This document shows positions 9,475 through 11,648 of a DNA stretch of 64,000 nt, piece after piece. Position 1 is the first letter of the stretch, and every line of letters starts with the position of its first letter. Location of the stretch: the NCBI GenBank assembly GCA_047456315.1, contig CP179889.1, positions 192,776 through 256,775 of the forward strand, read 5' to 3'. The notes beneath the pieces are model-generated. The model did no database searches. It was not told the origin of the DNA and saw nothing but the letters and a program-made list of their open reading frames with translations. A program made the translations under genes and the position numbers. This DNA comes from Candidatus Nealsonbacteria bacterium (GTDB lineage Bacteria; Patescibacteriota; Minisyncoccia; Minisyncoccales; JANBVM01).

Positions 9475-10158
9475 ATTGCTATCAAGCTTGGCGTCTTAGG
9501 CGTAAACATTGCCTTAAATGATATTGCACCCCAAGAAGAGAGCTTAAAAGAATTAAAATCTCAGATTGAGGCTCAAGGAGTTAGAGTTCAGTATTTTTTA
9601 GCTGATGTTTCAAAGCTGGAAGAGACCCATAAAATGGCTGAAAAAATAAAACAAGAATTTGGAGGGTTAGATATTTTAGTCAACAATGCTGGAATAACAA
9701 AAGACAGAACGCTTCTGAAAATGACCAAAGATGAATGGCAAAGAGTGATTGACGTTGATTTAACAGGAGTATTTAATGTAACTAAATCATGCCTGCCTTT
9801 AATTATTGCCAGTAAAGGGAAGATAGTGAATATTTCTTCAGTAATAGGACAGCGTGGAAATTTTGGCCAGACAAACTACGGAGCTGCTAAGGCCGGAGTA
9901 ATTGGTTTTACAAAATCCTTAAGCAAAGAAGTTGGTAAATTCAATGTTAATGTTAATGCAATTACGCCTGGTTTTATTGAAACACGGCTGACAAATAAAG
10001 TCCCTCTTCAATTTAAACTAATGCTTAAAAAATTGACTGCTTTGGGAAGATTTGGAAAACCAGAGGAAGTAGCAGATTTGGTGGCATTTTTATGCTCAAA
10101 TGAAGCCAGTTTCATAACCGGAGCAGTAATTAATATTGATGGAGGGTTGTCAATTTAA
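9421..10158 (+). CDS. fabG: 3-oxoacyl-(acyl-carrier) reductase FabG (classical SDR)
   Basis: TGSSQGIGKA, NNAG, the S...YGAAK catalytic motif and the C-terminal FITGAVINIDGG. Confidence 0.85.
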   Translation: MKGKTALITGSSQGIGKAIAIKLGVLGVNIALNDIAPQEESLKELKSQIEAQGVRVQYFLADVSKLEETHKMAEKIKQEFGGLDILVNNAGITKDRTLLKMTKDEWQRVIDVDLTGVFNVTKSCLPLIIASKGKIVNISSVIGQRGNFGQTNYGAAKAGVIGFTKSLSKEVGKFNVNVNAITPGFIETRLTNKVPLQFKLMLKKLTALGRFGKPEEVADLVAFLCSNEASFITGAVINIDGGLSI

Positions 10159-11648
10159 TGATGAAAAAAAACCAAATTAAAAAAATTATTCCTTATGATG
10201 AACCCTTTTTATGGGTTGATGAGATAGAAAGCATTTCAGCAAGAACTATTGTTGGTTATAAGGATACGTCAAAGAATGACCCTCACTTCAAGGGGCACTT
10301 TGTTGGGTTTCCAATTATGCCAGGAGTATTGGTTATTGAAGGAATAGCCCAAACAGCAACAATTCTTTTACGTACAAAGATTGGTTCTTCCCATAAGAAT
10401 AAGCACATGTTGGCATATCAGGTCAGAAGCGCTTTTTTTTATGAGCCCATTTTTCCTGAGCAAAAGATAAAGTATAAAGTCCAGCTTTTGGGTTTTTATG
10501 GCGATAAACTTGCTAATTTTAAAGGAGAGGCCTTTGTTGATGATAAAAGAAAGTGTGAAGTAAGATTTAGCATTGCAATTGTAGATAAAGATGATTTTAA
10601 AAAAAAGTTCTTGGAAAAACACAGCAGGCCTGTTCCTCAAACCAAACTCCCTCCTTTAAAAATTGGAAATCTTTTTACTAAAATTCCAATAATTCAAGGA
10701 GGTATGGCAGTAAGAGTGTCTCTTCATAATTTAGCTGGTAATGTGGCAAAAAATGGAGCAGTAGGTATTATTGCTGTTTCAGGAATGAATGATCCGAATG
10801 AAGTTAAATCAGAAATTAGAAAAGCCAGAAAAATTGCCGGATCAAATGGATTAATTGGAATCAATATTATGGGTGTGATAGGTCGTTTTACTGAACTGCT
10901 TGAGGCAGCCATGGAAGAGAAAATTGATTTAGTTATTCAGGGAGCAGGATTCAGAACAGATATCTTTGAAATGGGCAGGAAATATAATATTCCAATATTC
11001 TCAATGGCTTCATCTGTTAAGGTTGCTAAAAAGGGTGAAGCAATGGGAGCTGTGGCAGTGGTGGTTGAGGGAAAAGATGCTGGAGGCCATCTGGGGTTTC
11101 CAAAAGGCCATGCTTTTAGGAAAACCATTGACATTCTTAAAGACGTGGTAAAAGAAGTAAAAATACCAATAATTGCTGCTGGAGGAATATTCGATGGAAA
11201 AGATATTGTAGAAATGTTGAGAGCAGGTGCAAAAGGGGTTCAAATGGCAACAAGGTTTGTAACGACAAAAGAATGTGATGTCCATGACAATTTCAAGCAA
11301 GCTCACTTAAAAGCTAAGAAAGAGGATGTTGTAATAATTCATTCTCCTGTTGGGCTGCCTGGCAGAGCAATCAAGAATTCTTTTGTCAAAAAAATCCTGG
11401 AAGGCAAAGCCCCGAAACCAGACCCTTTAAAATGCCAGGGATGCATAGGAATGGCCTGTGATAAGAGCTATTGTATTTTAGATGCTTTAGAAAAAGCCAG
11501 AAAAGGAGATATAGAGAACGGGCTTATCTTTGCTGGTTCAAACGTCTGGAGAGTTAATAAAATAACCACTGTCAAAAAACTGCTTGAAGAATTGGTCGAA
11601 GAAGCAAATGAAATTTTAAAGAATAAACCTTTATTAATTAATGACTGA
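10158..11648 (+). CDS. Fusion of a FabZ-type beta-hydroxyacyl dehydratase and an FMN-dependent enoyl reductase (FabK / nitronate-monooxygenase family)
   Basis: aa ~10-150 carry the hotdog-fold FabZ motifs [11 protein letters not shown] and [24 protein letters not shown]. aa ~175-496 form a TIM-barrel NMO/FabK-like domain ([41 protein letters not shown]). Confidence 0.75.
   Translation: [496 protein letters not shown]

What the first reader, a model, noticed from the sequence alone, without database searches (positions are those of the whole stretch)
10158..11648. FabZ dehydratase fused in one ORF to a FabK/NMO-type enoyl reductase, followed directly by a stand-alone FabK
Seen in the sequence: a single 496-aa ORF carries a hotdog FabZ module ([24 protein letters not shown]) and, after a ~25-aa linker, a TIM-barrel FMN reductase module ([16 protein letters not shown]-x-DG, a Cys-rich C-terminal CQGC...C...C). 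The next gene overlaps its end by 8 nt (11641-11648) and is a canonical FabK. Inference: this is a DH-ER didomain resembling PKS or PUFA-synthase logic inside a dissociated system. The two reductases may differ in chain-length or substrate-carrier specificity. I do not recall FabZ-FabK fusions being characterised.
Basis: partly seen in the sequence, partly recalled or inferred. Interest (0 to 1): 0.6.

Follow-up and report, generated by a model that had tools for sequence, protein, structure and literature searches.

The report
FabZ fused to FabX-like iron-sulfur flavoenzyme
A real, conserved gene of tiny CPR bacteria fuses a fatty-acid dehydratase (FabZ) not to an ordinary FabK reductase but to a FabX/UfaA-type iron-sulfur flavoenzyme, which points to an oxygen-free route to unsaturated fatty acids in organisms thought unable to make fatty acids.

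Summary
ORF 10158-11648 (496 aa) is one continuous FabZ + NMO-barrel protein. It is conserved full length in more than 120 protein clusters from CPR bacteria (Nealsonbacteria/Paceibacterota), so it is not a frameshift artefact.

The interpretation needs correcting. The C-terminal module is not FabK-type. It is closest to H. pylori FabX, the FMN/[4Fe-4S] dehydrogenase/isomerase of unsaturated fatty acid (UFA) synthesis. It has all four cluster cysteines (C426/C429/C434/C439), the catalytic His311-Ser396 pair and the cluster-side tunnel residues. It lacks FabK's C-terminal segment. It separates from FabKs with 100% bootstrap. The true FabK-like reductase is the next gene.

Unfused homologs sit inside canonical FASII operons of many anaerobes, next to a separate fabK. 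In Atribacterota and a Lachnospiraceae MAG the homolog lies directly after fabZ.

Best reading (inferred): the FabZ module makes a trans-2-enoyl thioester, and the FabX-like module isomerises it to cis-3. That is a two-domain, oxygen-independent analogue of FabA. The main rival is a ferredoxin-driven enoyl reductase.

The operon has an archaeal-type thiolase, a DUF35-like partner, FabG, FabK, PlsC, ACC and PlsY. No ACP, FabD or KAS was detected, which suggests CoA-based chemistry.

Verdict: new variant of a known kind. Interest is moderate to high.

The parts
10158..11648 (+). Fusion ORF (496 aa): FabZ-like dehydratase :: FabX/UfaA-like FMN/[4Fe-4S] NMO-barrel enzyme
   Evidence: ORF. Domains. 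Conserved full length in the best 120 homolog clusters. AF2 pLDDT 88.9.
10158..10586 (+). FabZ-like hotdog module (residues 1-143). Catalytic His47 (nt 10296-10298) and Glu61.
   Evidence: Pfam FabA-like E 1.5e-19. NCBIfam FabZ 98.7 bits, below the 113 cutoff. Foldseek to C. jejuni FabZ 3d6x gives TM 0.93. Both are invariant in 65 homologs.
10587..10643 (+). Extra helix (residues 144-154) plus a short variable linker (about 155-162)
   Evidence: AF2 secondary structure and lower pLDDT. Majority-residue conservation 0.56 and 0.35. The 143-163 segment is 14-28 aa long across homologs.
10644..11402 (+). FMN TIM-barrel (residues 163-415). FMN ligand positions N236, E304, Q362, T365. Catalytic His311 (nt 11088-11090). 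Ser396, the partner of the His.
   Evidence: Residue mapping onto HpFabX N99/E175/Q240/T243/H182/S273. All are invariant in A1. The His region and [10 protein letters not shown] motif contrast with FabK's TGHPVR.
11403..11567 (+). Predicted [4Fe-4S]-binding subdomain (residues 416-470). Cys426 (nt 11433-11435), Cys429, Cys434, Cys439. Tunnel residues I440, L444, F458.
   Evidence: Equivalent to HpFabX C300/C304/C308/C320 (PMC8626469; mapping). The motif is present in 120 of 120 homologs, and the four Cys are invariant in A1. It is absent from the adjacent FabK.
11641..12585 (+). Stand-alone FabK-like enoyl reductase (314 aa). It has no Cys cluster and has Glu229 at the Ser396 position.
   Evidence: TIGR03151 332 bits, cutoff 453. 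It clusters with FabKs of canonical FASII operons at 100% bootstrap. It follows the fusion in all 16 CPR loci, window included.
9421..10158 (+). FabG-type 3-oxoacyl-thioester reductase. Its stop overlaps the fusion's start by 1 nt.
   Evidence: TIGR01830 288 bits and SDR Pfam hits. It precedes the fusion in all 16 CPR loci, window included.
6096..7220 (+). Archaeal/SCP-x-type thiolase-domain protein, a candidate condensing enzyme
   Evidence: NF004720 308 bits, M. thermolithotrophicus-type thiolase 264 bits, BbsB 191 bits. It is present in the cluster in 14 of the 16 CPR loci. L017 and L019, where it is not seen, have the fusion close to the contig start.
7762..8820 (+). Zn-ribbon/OB (DUF35-like) N-terminus fused to DUF362, a probable thiolase partner
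   Evidence: Pfam DUF362. Pfam does not detect DUF35. The AF2 model (pLDDT 84) has an N-terminal ~105 aa that matches the DUF35 subunits BbsA (7pyt/7pxp), MucABC and ChsH2 at prob 0.92-1.0 but E ~1e-2. JGI labels some homologs 'OB-fold protein'.
12599..13917 (+). Two tandem PlsC-like acyltransferases
   Evidence: Pfam Acyltransferase, E 1e-22 to 1e-23.
13907..17900 (+). Acyl-CoA carboxylase set: biotin carboxylase, BCCP, biotin ligase and carboxyltransferase. The BioY biotin transporter lies upstream at 8825-9421.
   Evidence: Pfam hits. Conserved downstream of FabK/PlsC in the CPR loci.
17897..18580 (+). PlsY-type glycerol-3-phosphate acyltransferase. It ends the tightly packed + strand gene run 7762-18580.
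   Evidence: Pfam G3P_acyltransf E 6e-32. Gaps and overlaps of -11 to +13 nt, read.

Best explanation
The ORF encodes a bifunctional enzyme of the unsaturated fatty acid branch.

The N-terminal FabZ module (His47/Glu61) dehydrates (3R)-hydroxyacyl thioesters to trans-2-enoyl thioesters. It appears to be the operon's only dehydratase, so most of its product must pass to the adjacent FabK-like reductase for saturated elongation.

The C-terminal module is a FabX/UfaA-family FMN + [4Fe-4S] enzyme (His311/Ser396; Cys426/429/434/439). At a medium chain length set by its cluster-capped tunnel, it captures the trans-2-enoyl product and isomerises it to cis-3-enoyl. That product escapes reduction and is elongated to cis-unsaturated acyl chains.

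The fusion is therefore a two-domain, oxygen- and acceptor-independent functional analogue of FabA. It removes the need for H. pylori's O2-dependent 'backtracking' dehydrogenation.

Shown here: the domain identities, the cofactor-ligand and catalytic residues, conservation of the fusion, the operon context, and the linkage of unfused homologs to FASII operons and to fabZ.

Inferred: the isomerase reaction, the chain length, and the carrier. The carrier is probably CoA rather than ACP in these CPR bacteria.
For: 1. The C-terminal module is FabX-type.
- PDB sequence hits: HpFabX 192 bits versus FabK 147 bits or less.
- Foldseek: the top three hits are HpFabX.
- All four cluster Cys, H182/S273, the FMN ligands and the tunnel residues I321/L325/F339 are conserved.
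- Identity is 43% to HpFabX and 31% to the neighbouring FabK.
- The FeS-NMO versus FabK split has 100% bootstrap.

2. Characterised relatives act in UFA synthesis. HpFabX is a dehydrogenase/isomerase, and its isomerisation step does not need O2 (PMC8626469). N. gonorrhoeae UfaA (NGO1024) functions in anaerobic UFA synthesis and is induced 8-10x anaerobically.

3. Gene-neighbourhood (Rosetta-stone) evidence. In Atribacterota (L032, L055) and a Lachnospiraceae MAG (L075), a separate fabZ is immediately followed by the FeS-NMO gene at the end of fabH-fabK-fabD-fabG-fabF-fabZ-NMO operons.

4. It is not redundant with FabK. Of 68 non-CPR homolog loci, 46 lie in FASII clusters, and 32 of those show fabK in the same locus. 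All 16 CPR loci, window included, keep both the fusion and FabK despite genomes of about 0.65 Mb.

5. Both modules are under purifying selection, with a variable linker between them.

6. Precedents for flavin or Fe-S cofactors in redox-neutral double-bond shifts come from established knowledge: type-2 IPP isomerase, and 4-hydroxybutyryl-CoA dehydratase/vinylacetyl-CoA isomerase.
Against: - No activity was measured. Isomerase function is extrapolated from a relative that is 43% identical.
- The CPR module lies outside the well-supported (97%) 'long' subgroup that contains HpFabX. It lacks the HpFabX insertion bearing tunnel residues F74/Y75 and the ACP-docking residues R160/R164. Substrate, chain length and even the reaction could therefore differ.
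- Its sister relation to the 'short' FASII-embedded group has only 48% bootstrap.
- F. nucleatum FabX overexpression partly rescues FabK inhibition (PMC11091888), which hints at some reductase capacity in the family.
- A redox-neutral isomerase does not obviously need a [4Fe-4S] cluster.
- No ACP, KAS or FabD was detected near the gene, so the downstream elongation of a cis-3 intermediate is itself hypothetical.
Confidence: 0.5

Rival explanations
1. Ferredoxin- (or flavodoxin-) dependent enoyl-thioester reductase. This is a true DH-ER didomain. Electrons enter through the surface [4Fe-4S] cluster and pass to FMN, instead of coming from NAD(P)H. FabK would be a second, NADH-dependent reductase for other chain lengths or redox states. 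A variant of this idea is a short-chain crotonyl-CoA-type reduction for redox balance.
For: [quoted passage not shown]
- These anaerobes encode 2-oxoacid:ferredoxin oxidoreductase (PMC12281837).
- F. nucleatum FabX overexpression raises the MIC of a FabK inhibitor 8-fold.
- Dehydratase followed by reductase are consecutive steps, which makes fusion logical.
- FabG also scores as an acetoacetyl-CoA reductase-like protein.
Against: - It would duplicate FabK in about 0.65 Mb genomes, yet both genes are retained in all 16 CPR loci. Both also co-occur in 32 canonical FASII loci.
- The genetically characterised relatives (HpFabX, UfaA) are needed for UFA synthesis.
- The cluster-capped tunnel of HpFabX barely fits C8-C10, and its cluster-side residues are conserved here. 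That suits a bulk reductase for C16-18 poorly.
- The F. nucleatum effect could be inhibitor titration by a homolog.
Confidence: 0.25
2. A HpFabX-like 'backtracking' enzyme. The C-terminal module dehydrogenates a saturated medium-chain acyl thioester and then isomerises it, passing electrons through the [4Fe-4S] cluster to an unknown anaerobic acceptor. The FabZ fusion only co-localises or stoichiometrically couples two FAS enzymes.
For: - This is the demonstrated chemistry of the only biochemically characterised member.
- N. gonorrhoeae UfaA works anaerobically with an 'unknown electron acceptor'.
- All redox cofactor ligands are conserved.
Against: - Acyl-thioester dehydrogenation needs a high-potential acceptor. 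HpFabX uses O2, and no other acceptor is known. The CPR hosts are fermentative anaerobes.
- Fusion or adjacency to fabZ has no rationale if the substrate is the saturated chain, because FabZ already supplies trans-2-enoyl.
Confidence: 0.12
3. A degradative or remodelling module that runs in the beta-oxidation direction on scavenged fatty acids. The FeS-NMO acts as an acyl-thioester dehydrogenase, the FabZ module as an (R)-hydratase, FabG as a dehydrogenase, and the thiolase performs thiolysis.
For: - Dehydrogenase then hydratase are also consecutive steps.
- A thiolase, rather than a KAS, is in the operon.
- FakA (fatty acid kinase) lies upstream.
- HpFabX is mechanistically an acyl dehydrogenase.
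Against: - The same operon encodes biotin carboxylase, BCCP, carboxyltransferase, BioY and BirA (malonyl-CoA supply), a FabK-like reductase, PlsC and PlsY. All of these are biosynthetic.
- No high-potential acceptor is evident.
- Homologs sit in biosynthetic FASII operons.
Confidence: 0.06
4. An assembly or sequencing artefact: a missed stop or frameshift joins separate fabZ and NMO genes.
For: Unfused fabZ-NMO neighbours do exist in other phyla.
Against: - The continuous ORF is found in the best 120 clusters from independent NCBI, JGI, ENA and Logan assemblies, including closed genomes.
- L164 and P165, at the start of the C-terminal module, are invariant.
- The fusion also exists in the cultured Minisyncoccus archaeiphilus as MNSC_05940.
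Confidence: 0.01

Closest known systems
Helicobacter pylori FabX (HP0773; PDB 7E1Q/7E1R/7E1S), an FMN/[4Fe-4S] acyl-ACP dehydrogenase/isomerase
   Same: Shares the NMO TIM-barrel, the FMN ligands, the catalytic His plus its Ser partner, the four Cys of the [4Fe-4S] subdomain that replaces FabK's NAD(P)H motif, and the cluster-side tunnel residues. It is the best sequence and fold match.
   Different: Only 43% identical, and outside the 97%-supported HpFabX subgroup. It lacks the insertion carrying F74/Y75 and the ACP-docking residues R160/R164. Cys spacing is CxxCx4Cx4C rather than Cx3Cx3Cx11C. It is fused to FabZ. The host is an anaerobe in which no ACP has been reported, whereas HpFabX is stand-alone, O2-dependent and ACP-dependent.
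Neisseria gonorrhoeae UfaA (NGO1024)
   Same: A '2-nitropropane dioxygenase-like' FabX homolog that functions in anaerobic UFA synthesis in an organism lacking FabA. It is anaerobically induced. This is the physiological setting proposed here.
   Different: It is stand-alone and works in a canonical ACP-based FASII with FabI.
FabA (and FabN/FabQ), the bifunctional dehydratase/isomerases of the anaerobic UFA pathway
   Same: The proposed net reaction is the same: 3-hydroxyacyl to trans-2-enoyl to cis-3-enoyl within one polypeptide.
   Different: FabA does both steps in a single hotdog active site (His/Asp) with no cofactor. Here the hotdog is FabZ-type (His/Glu), and the isomerase step is assigned to a separate flavin/Fe-S barrel. 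This is a functional analogy only.
FabK (enoyl-ACP reductase II; 2Z6I, 7L00, 9PL0)
   Same: Shares the NMO fold, FMN and the catalytic His. It is the second-best structural match.
   Different: No Cys cluster. It has the TGHPVR motif instead of [10 protein letters not shown], it binds NAD(P)H, and it forms a separate clade at 100% bootstrap. The true FabK-like gene is the next ORF.
Unfused FeS-NMO genes inside FASII operons of anaerobes (Negativicutes, Heliorestis, Coriobacteriia, Saganbacteria, Atribacterota, Lachnospiraceae)
   Same: These are the closest relatives of the C-terminal module (45-52% identity) and share the compact Cys motif. They are linked to acpP/fabF or sit directly after fabZ.
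   Different: They are separate genes in ACP-based operons. None was found to be characterised in the searched literature.
Archaeal ACP-independent fatty acid synthase complex (ketothiolase/DUF35 + SDR reductase + MaoC dehydratase + enoyl-CoA reductase; bioRxiv 10.1101/2024.07.05.601840)
   Same: The operon pairs an archaeal-type thiolase with a Zn-ribbon/OB DUF35-like protein, an SDR ketoreductase, a dehydratase and an enoyl reductase. No ACP, KAS or FabD was found.
   Different: The dehydratase is FabZ-type rather than MaoC, and the reductase is FabK-type rather than MDR. The DUF35-like domain is fused to DUF362. An acyl-CoA carboxylase is co-encoded, whereas the archaeal system does not use malonyl-CoA. 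CoA dependence is untested here.

Membership tests
FabZ (3-hydroxyacyl-ACP dehydratase) | Hotdog fold | tested here: met
   Pfam FabA-like E 1.5e-19. In the AF2 model, residues 1-143 match C. jejuni FabZ 3d6x with TM 0.93 and rmsd 1.4-1.9.
FabZ (3-hydroxyacyl-ACP dehydratase) | Catalytic His + Glu dyad (EcFabZ H54/E68) | tested here: met
   H47 and E61 align with them. Both are invariant in 65 homologs.
FabZ (3-hydroxyacyl-ACP dehydratase) | Score above the curated equivalog cutoff | tested here: not met
   NF000582 98.7 bits (cutoff 113). TIGR01750 97.9 bits (cutoff 155). It is a divergent FabZ-like module, 31% identical to EcFabZ.
FabZ (3-hydroxyacyl-ACP dehydratase) | Substrate carried on ACP | not testable with these tools
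   No ACP, FabD, FabH or FabF was detected in the 64-kb window or in 15 other CPR loci. The Minisyncoccus genome paper lists no ACP or KAS. Whole genomes could not be scanned.
FabK (enoyl-ACP reductase II) | NMO TIM-barrel with FMN ligands and a catalytic His | tested here: met
   Pfam NMO E 3.7e-56. H311, N236, E304, Q362 and T365 are conserved.
FabK (enoyl-ACP reductase II) | NAD(P)H-binding C-terminal segment with no Fe-S cluster | tested here: not met
   The segment is replaced by a four-Cys subdomain, as in FabX.
FabK (enoyl-ACP reductase II) | Equivalog score and phylogenetic placement with FabKs | tested here: not met
   TIGR03151 194 bits versus a 453 cutoff. It lies outside the FabK clade, 100% bootstrap.
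FabX/UfaA-type [4Fe-4S] NMO flavoenzymes | Four Cys ligands of the [4Fe-4S] cluster (HpFabX C300/C304/C308/C320) | tested here: met
   C426/C429/C434/C439 align with them. The motif is in 120 of 120 homologs, and the Cys are invariant in A1. Actual cluster binding was not measured.
FabX/UfaA-type [4Fe-4S] NMO flavoenzymes | Catalytic His182 hydrogen-bonded to Ser273, plus the FMN ligands | tested here: met
   H311, S396, N236, E304, Q362 and T365. FabK has Glu229 at the Ser position.
FabX/UfaA-type [4Fe-4S] NMO flavoenzymes | Acyl tunnel capped by the cluster (V305, I321, L325, F339; F74/Y75) | tested here: inconclusive
   I430, I440, L444 and F458 are conserved. The insertion carrying F74/Y75 is absent. 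Tunnel shape could not be measured because no model coordinates were available.
FabX/UfaA-type [4Fe-4S] NMO flavoenzymes | ACP docking through the alpha7 helix (K152, R160, R164) and T130 | tested here: not met
   T267 and K288 are kept, but R160 becomes M296 and R164 falls in a deletion. R164A abolishes ACP binding in HpFabX.
FabX/UfaA-type [4Fe-4S] NMO flavoenzymes | Orthology with HpFabX (same subclade) | tested here: not met
   HpFabX belongs to a 'long' subgroup with 97% bootstrap. The CPR fusions lie outside it. They are members of the wider family, not strict orthologs.
FabX/UfaA-type [4Fe-4S] NMO flavoenzymes | Dehydrogenase/isomerase activity yielding a cis-3-enoyl thioester | not testable with these tools
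   This requires enzymology or genetic complementation.
PKS / PUFA-synthase DH-ER (PfaD-type) didomain | ER module of the PfaD/trans-AT ER family | tested here: not met
   No PfaD-family (TIGR02814) hit among the fusion's 25 listed NCBIfam matches. Only the adjacent FabK shows a weak 43-bit N-terminal hit. There are no KS, AT or ACP domains nearby.

The most novel reading that the evidence does not exclude
The tightly packed operon encodes a complete, ACP-independent, CoA-based fatty acid synthase with its own oxygen-free unsaturation branch. Its parts are an archaeal-type thiolase, a DUF35-like::DUF362 partner, FabG, FabZ::FabX-like, FabK, PlsC, an acyl-CoA carboxylase and PlsY, with FakA, CdsA/CarS-like and PgsA-like genes upstream. 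It would be a bacterial counterpart of the newly described archaeal FAS complex. That would mean Paceibacterota/Nealsonbacteria, including parasites of archaea whose hosts offer no fatty-acyl lipids, make their own saturated and cis-unsaturated acyl chains. This runs against the prevailing view that CPR bacteria cannot synthesise fatty acids. It would also mean that the widespread FeS-NMO gene in FASII operons is the missing anaerobic UFA isomerase of many FabA-less anaerobes.
Probability: 0.25. Interest if true: 0.85.

Novelty: new variant of a known kind. Interest (0 to 1): 0.62.

Why it matters
It bears on two open questions.

1. How do FabA/FabM-less anaerobes introduce the cis double bond, and what is the 'unknown electron acceptor' of UfaA/FabX under anoxia? 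A natural FabZ::FabX-like fusion, together with fabZ-NMO adjacency in other phyla, suggests that no acceptor is needed. The enzyme would simply take FabZ's trans-2-enoyl product. This can be tested directly with one recombinant protein.

2. How do CPR/Patescibacteria obtain membrane lipids? The authors of the first cultured relative state that the role of exactly this gene set 'remains unclear'. Recognising the 'nitronate monooxygenase/FabA-like domain protein' as FabZ::FabX-like, next to a thiolase/DUF35-like pair and an acyl-CoA carboxylase, turns a 'partial FASII' into a concrete and testable pathway model.

It also corrects a systematic misannotation ('nitronate monooxygenase') across thousands of metagenomic proteins.

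Tried and rejected
- **Frameshift or misassembly:** rejected. The fusion is conserved in more than 120 clusters and in closed genomes.
- **Neighbourhoods of the closest stand-alone relatives** (P0124, P0126) and of the closest stand-alone FabZ (P0207): uninformative. The contexts are unrelated or the contigs are very short, and no NMO lies downstream of P0207.
- **Other FabZ-NMO fusions:** the exhaustive 50%-identity library gave only one full-length fusion representative (P0118). 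The longer hits proved to be MarR-NMO, PlsC-NMO, XdhC-NMO, QRPTase-NMO or TPR-NMO, some of which may be gene-call artefacts.
- **Pfam recognition of DUF35** in the Zn-ribbon N-terminus of ORF 7762-8820: failed even at E <= 1. Only fold comparison gave weak but consistent DUF35 matches.
- **A 90-aa unannotated gene after the carboxyltransferase in L003** was checked as a possible cryptic ACP. It has no DSL-type motif. A regex for ACP motifs over all six frames of the window found nothing.
- **Papers not held:** Bi et al. 2016 (PMC5215899) and Isabella & Clark 2011 (PMC3192263). Their content is cited only through papers that describe them, or is marked as memory.
- **Technical failures:** the first bootstrap run timed out and was redone with a faster NJ implementation. 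AF2 coordinates are not exposed, so Cys-Cys distances, inter-active-site distance and tunnel shape could not be measured.
- **Whole-genome absence of ACP/AcpS/KAS** in the CPR genomes could not be tested, because only +/-10 kb flanks can be fetched.

Full report
**1. Observation**

The ORF 10158-11648 (+ strand, 496 aa) is present exactly as reported, and so are the quoted motifs. Pfam finds a FabA-like hotdog at residues 14-134 (E 1.5e-19) and an NMO barrel at 175-488 (E 3.7e-56). NCBIfam's best names are FabZ (98.7 bits) and FabK (194 bits), but both fall below the curated equivalog cutoffs of 113 and 453.

FabG (9421-10158) ends 1 nt inside the fusion's start codon. A 314-aa FabK-like ORF (11641-12585; 332 bits against the FabK model) begins 8 nt before the fusion's stop if its first ATG is used.

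The window has 32.8% G+C. A neighbouring protein is 99% identical to one on a 675-kb 'Candidatus Nealsonbacteria' contig.

**2. Not an artefact**

- The best 120 hits in the 5.8-billion-protein search are all about 490-530 aa, 67-100% identical, and carry both Pfam domains.
- Sources name them Nealsonbacteria, Paceibacterota or Parcubacteria. The usual annotation is just 'nitronate monooxygenase'.
- They occur on closed genomes CP179891.1 and CP179892.1.
- In a 65-sequence alignment both modules are strongly conserved (majority-residue frequency 0.81 and 0.85). Residues 155-162 are variable (0.35), and the 143-163 segment ranges from 14 to 28 aa.
- AF2 gives a confident two-domain model (pLDDT 88.9, pTM 0.74): hotdog 1-143, an extra helix 144-154, a short linker, then the barrel.

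**3. What the C-terminal module really is**

The best solved-structure matches by sequence are 7E1Q/7E1R/7E1S and relatives (192 bits). They rank ahead of the FabKs 7L00 (147), 9PL0 (144) and 2Z6I (124). These entries are H. pylori FabX.

FabX is the FMN flavoenzyme that dehydrogenates decanoyl-ACP and isomerises trans-2- to cis-3-decenoyl-ACP. Its C-terminal [4Fe-4S] subdomain (C300/C304/C308/C320) replaces FabK's NAD(P)H-binding motif (PMC8626469). Foldseek on the AF2 model also ranks three FabX structures first. The N-terminal module matches C. jejuni FabZ with TM 0.93.

I reconstructed HpFabX residues 4-361 from the printed alignment and mapped its functional residues.

| HpFabX feature | Fusion | Status |
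|---|---|---|
| Cluster Cys C300/C304/C308/C320 | C426/C429/C434/C439 | conserved |
| Catalytic H182 | H311 | conserved |
| S273 (H-bond partner of H182) | S396 | conserved |
| FMN ligands N99/E175/Q240/T243 | N236/E304/Q362/T365 | conserved |
| Cluster-side tunnel V305/I321/L325/F339 | I430/I440/L444/F458 | conserved |
| Insertion with tunnel residues F74/Y75 | none | absent |
| ACP-docking R160/R164 | M296 / deletion | not conserved |
| T130 and K152 | T267 and K288 | conserved |

- The Cys motif is present in 120 of 120 fusion homologs, and the four Cys are invariant in A1.
- The neighbouring FabK has no Cys at any of the four positions, has Glu229 at the Ser position, and has TGHPVR where the fusion has [10 protein letters not shown].
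- Identities are 43% to HpFabX and 31% to the adjacent FabK.

**4. Phylogeny**

In a bootstrapped NJ tree of 52 sequences:
- Fe-S-type NMOs separate from FabKs in 100% of replicates. The FabK set includes the window's own FabK and FabKs taken from the same operons as the FeS-NMOs.
- The CPR fusions are monophyletic (100%).
- HpFabX belongs to a 'long' (351-373 aa) subgroup with 97% support.
- The CPR module lies outside that subgroup, nearest a 'short' (316-333 aa) group, but with only 48% support.

The module is therefore a member of the wider FabX/UfaA-like Fe-S family, not a strict FabX ortholog.

**5. Distribution**

In the exhaustive library of 50%-identity representatives, only one full-length fusion representative exists (P0118). 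The other hits are stand-alone proteins, mostly with the Cys motif, or unrelated fusions such as MarR-NMO and PlsC-NMO. The FabZ fusion is thus a single, tight, CPR-restricted family.

A scan of one genome per GTDB species returned 11 CPR loci with the fusion and 68 non-CPR loci with unfused homologs at 35-52% identity. I annotated all loci locally with phmmer. Counts for the 68 non-CPR loci are.

| Context of the non-CPR homolog | Loci |
|---|---|
| Inside a canonical FASII cluster | 46 of 68 |
| ...between acpP and fabF (fabH-fabK-fabD-fabG-acpP-NMO-fabF) | 41 |
| ...directly after fabZ (fabH-fabK-fabD-fabG-fabF-fabZ-NMO) | 3 (L032, L055, L075) |
| FASII-cluster loci with fabK in the same locus | 32 |

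- The acpP-NMO-fabF arrangement occurs in Veillonella, Selenomonas, Sporomusa, Pelosinus, Megasphaera, Heliorestis, Coriobacteriia, Saganbacteria, WOR-1 and others.
- The fabZ-NMO arrangement occurs in two Atribacterota MAGs and one Lachnospiraceae MAG. It is the unfused version of the CPR protein.
- All 86 homologs in the fetched loci and the window have the Cys motif.

**6. Operon context in CPR**

All 16 CPR loci, window included, share the run FabG - fusion - FabK - PlsC, followed by the acyl-CoA carboxylase genes (biotin carboxylase, BCCP, biotin ligase, carboxyltransferase). The thiolase and the Zn-ribbon::DUF362 gene precede this run wherever the upstream DNA is present. FakA, BioY, DUF359 and PlsY are often included.

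- None of the probes for ACP, FabD, FabH or FabF hit anything in the 64-kb window or in any CPR locus. An ACP motif search also found nothing.
- In the window, the + strand run 7762-18580 is packed with gaps or overlaps of -11 to +13 nt.
- The thiolase is of the archaeal/SCP-x type (NF004720 308 bits; M. thermolithotrophicus-type 264 bits; BbsB 191 bits).
- Its neighbour's N-terminal ~105 aa is not recognised as DUF35 by Pfam. The AF2 model (pLDDT 84) matches the DUF35 subunits of the BbsAB, MucABC and Ltp2-ChsH2 complexes (prob 0.92-1.0, E ~1e-2). The DUF362 part resembles the LarA N-domain.
- A 2024 preprint shows an archaeal ACP-independent FAS made of ketothiolase/DUF35, an SDR reductase, a dehydratase and an enoyl-CoA reductase.
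- The cultured relative Minisyncoccus archaeiphilus, a parasite of archaea, has the same genes in a row: thiolase MNSC_05910, a COG1545-labelled protein MNSC_05920, FabG MNSC_05930, the NMO+FabA-like fusion MNSC_05940, FabK MNSC_05950 and AccC MNSC_05970. Its authors state that the genome lacks a complete FAS pathway and that how these genes contribute 'remains unclear'.

**7. Mechanism**

*Shown:* a FabZ-type dehydratase module with an intact His/Glu dyad, fused to an FMN/[4Fe-4S]-type barrel with the FabX catalytic set, followed by a separate FabK-like reductase.

*From the literature:*
- FabX-family enzymes act in UFA synthesis.
- HpFabX's isomerisation step is O2-independent and is attributed to tunnel shape.
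- N. gonorrhoeae UfaA works anaerobically with an unknown acceptor.

*Inference:* the FabZ module already produces trans-2-enoyl thioester. Evolution has repeatedly placed the FeS-NMO directly after fabZ, by adjacency in three loci from two phyla and by fusion in CPR, while keeping fabK as well. The most economical reading is therefore that the FeS-NMO module takes FabZ's product and isomerises it to cis-3. This is a two-domain analogue of FabA that needs neither O2 nor an external acceptor.

Retention of both the fusion and FabK in about 0.65 Mb genomes argues against simple redundancy. The carrier is probably CoA, but this is not established.

*Rivals:*

| Rival | Confidence |
|---|---|
| Ferredoxin-driven enoyl reductase (supported by cluster geometry and the F. 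nucleatum overexpression result) | 0.25 |
| HpFabX-like backtracking with an unknown acceptor | 0.12 |
| Beta-oxidation-like remodelling (contradicted by the co-encoded carboxylase, FabK, PlsC and PlsY) | 0.06 |
| Assembly artefact | 0.01 |

**8. Comparison and novelty**

The parts are known families. The combination (FabZ::FabX-like), its restriction to a CPR clade, and its setting in an operon without ACP or KAS are not described in the searchable literature. Databases call the protein 'nitronate monooxygenase'.

I rate it a new variant of a known kind, with interest 0.62. It turns two open questions into single-protein experiments: anaerobic UFA synthesis by UfaA/FabX, and the origin of CPR lipids.

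**9. Caveats**

- The trees are NJ, not ML.
- The E. coli probe sequences and some background are from memory. The background items are the abstract of Bi et al. 2016, DUF359 as the archaeal dephospho-CoA kinase family, and the flavin/Fe-S isomerase precedents.
- Whole-genome absence of ACP could not be checked.
- No structural coordinates were available for geometric tests.

Noticed in passing
window 7762-8820 (+), next to the thiolase at 6096-7220: A Zn-ribbon/OB N-terminus fused to DUF362. The N-terminus is DUF35-like by fold (matching BbsA, MucABC and ChsH2 subunits), though not by Pfam. The DUF362 part resembles the LarA (lactate racemase) N-domain. Pairing it with an archaeal-type thiolase recalls archaeal ketothiolase/DUF35 complexes.
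   Followed up: partly
window 7213-7719 (-): A DUF359 protein sits on the opposite strand between the thiolase and the DUF362 gene, and is conserved there in several CPR loci. From memory, DUF359 is the archaeal GTP-dependent dephospho-CoA kinase family, which would fit CoA-centred chemistry. This was not verified here.
   Followed up: no
window 1765-2364 (-), 3092-3649 (+), 4340-6064 (+): More lipid genes lie just upstream: a CDP-alcohol phosphatidyltransferase, a CarS-like protein (CDP-archaeol synthase family, unusual in a bacterium) and FakA. Relatives also have a DegV/FakB gene here. Nearly the whole phospholipid pathway is co-located.
   Followed up: no
loci L024-L085 (for example L030 Veillonella, L069 Sporomusa, L026 Heliorestis, L054 Slackia, L074 Saganbacteria): A short (about 316-333 aa) Fe-S NMO gene lies between acpP and fabF in canonical FASII operons that also contain fabK. 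This is the case in 41 of 68 non-CPR loci. It appears to be an unrecognised, widespread FASII component of anaerobes.
   Followed up: partly
L087 (Clostridium sp. CF012), about 10001-11056: Here a long-type FeS-NMO is the first gene of the cluster, directly upstream of fabH-acpP-fabK-fabD-fabG-fabF-fabZ-accC.
   Followed up: no
proteins P0130, P0230, P0244: Other fusions of the Fe-S NMO module exist: MarR-family HTH::NMO (P0130 and P0230) and PlsC acyltransferase::NMO (P0244). Both again hint at lipid-related regulation or function.
   Followed up: partly
protein P0139 (311 aa): This FabK-length protein is 46% identical to the window's FabK yet carries the four-Cys motif (CYRCLKHCNPGTTPYC). 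It may be an intermediate between the FabK and FabX types.
   Followed up: no
window 12599-13279 and 13276-13917 (+): Two tandem PlsC-like acyltransferase paralogs overlap by 4 nt. Several related CPR loci have only one.
   Followed up: no
window 23251-32118: This looks like a mobile or defence island. It has an 841-aa protein with an N6-adenine methyltransferase motif (TNPPFGKK), a tyrosine-recombinase-like ORF (26554-27393), an HTH/Xre-like ORF and several small orphan ORFs on the opposite strand. This was read from translations only.
   Followed up: no
window 34764-38849 (+): A 1361-aa repetitive protein rich in Thr, Ala, Ser and Gly, with an N-terminal hydrophobic segment. It is probably a surface protein.
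   Followed up: no
L006 668-1195 (protein P0207): A stand-alone FabZ, 49-50% identical to the fusion's N-module. It includes the extra C-terminal helix and stops where the fusion's linker begins, with no NMO gene downstream on this 2.4-kb contig. It could be an unfused or split relative.
   Followed up: partly
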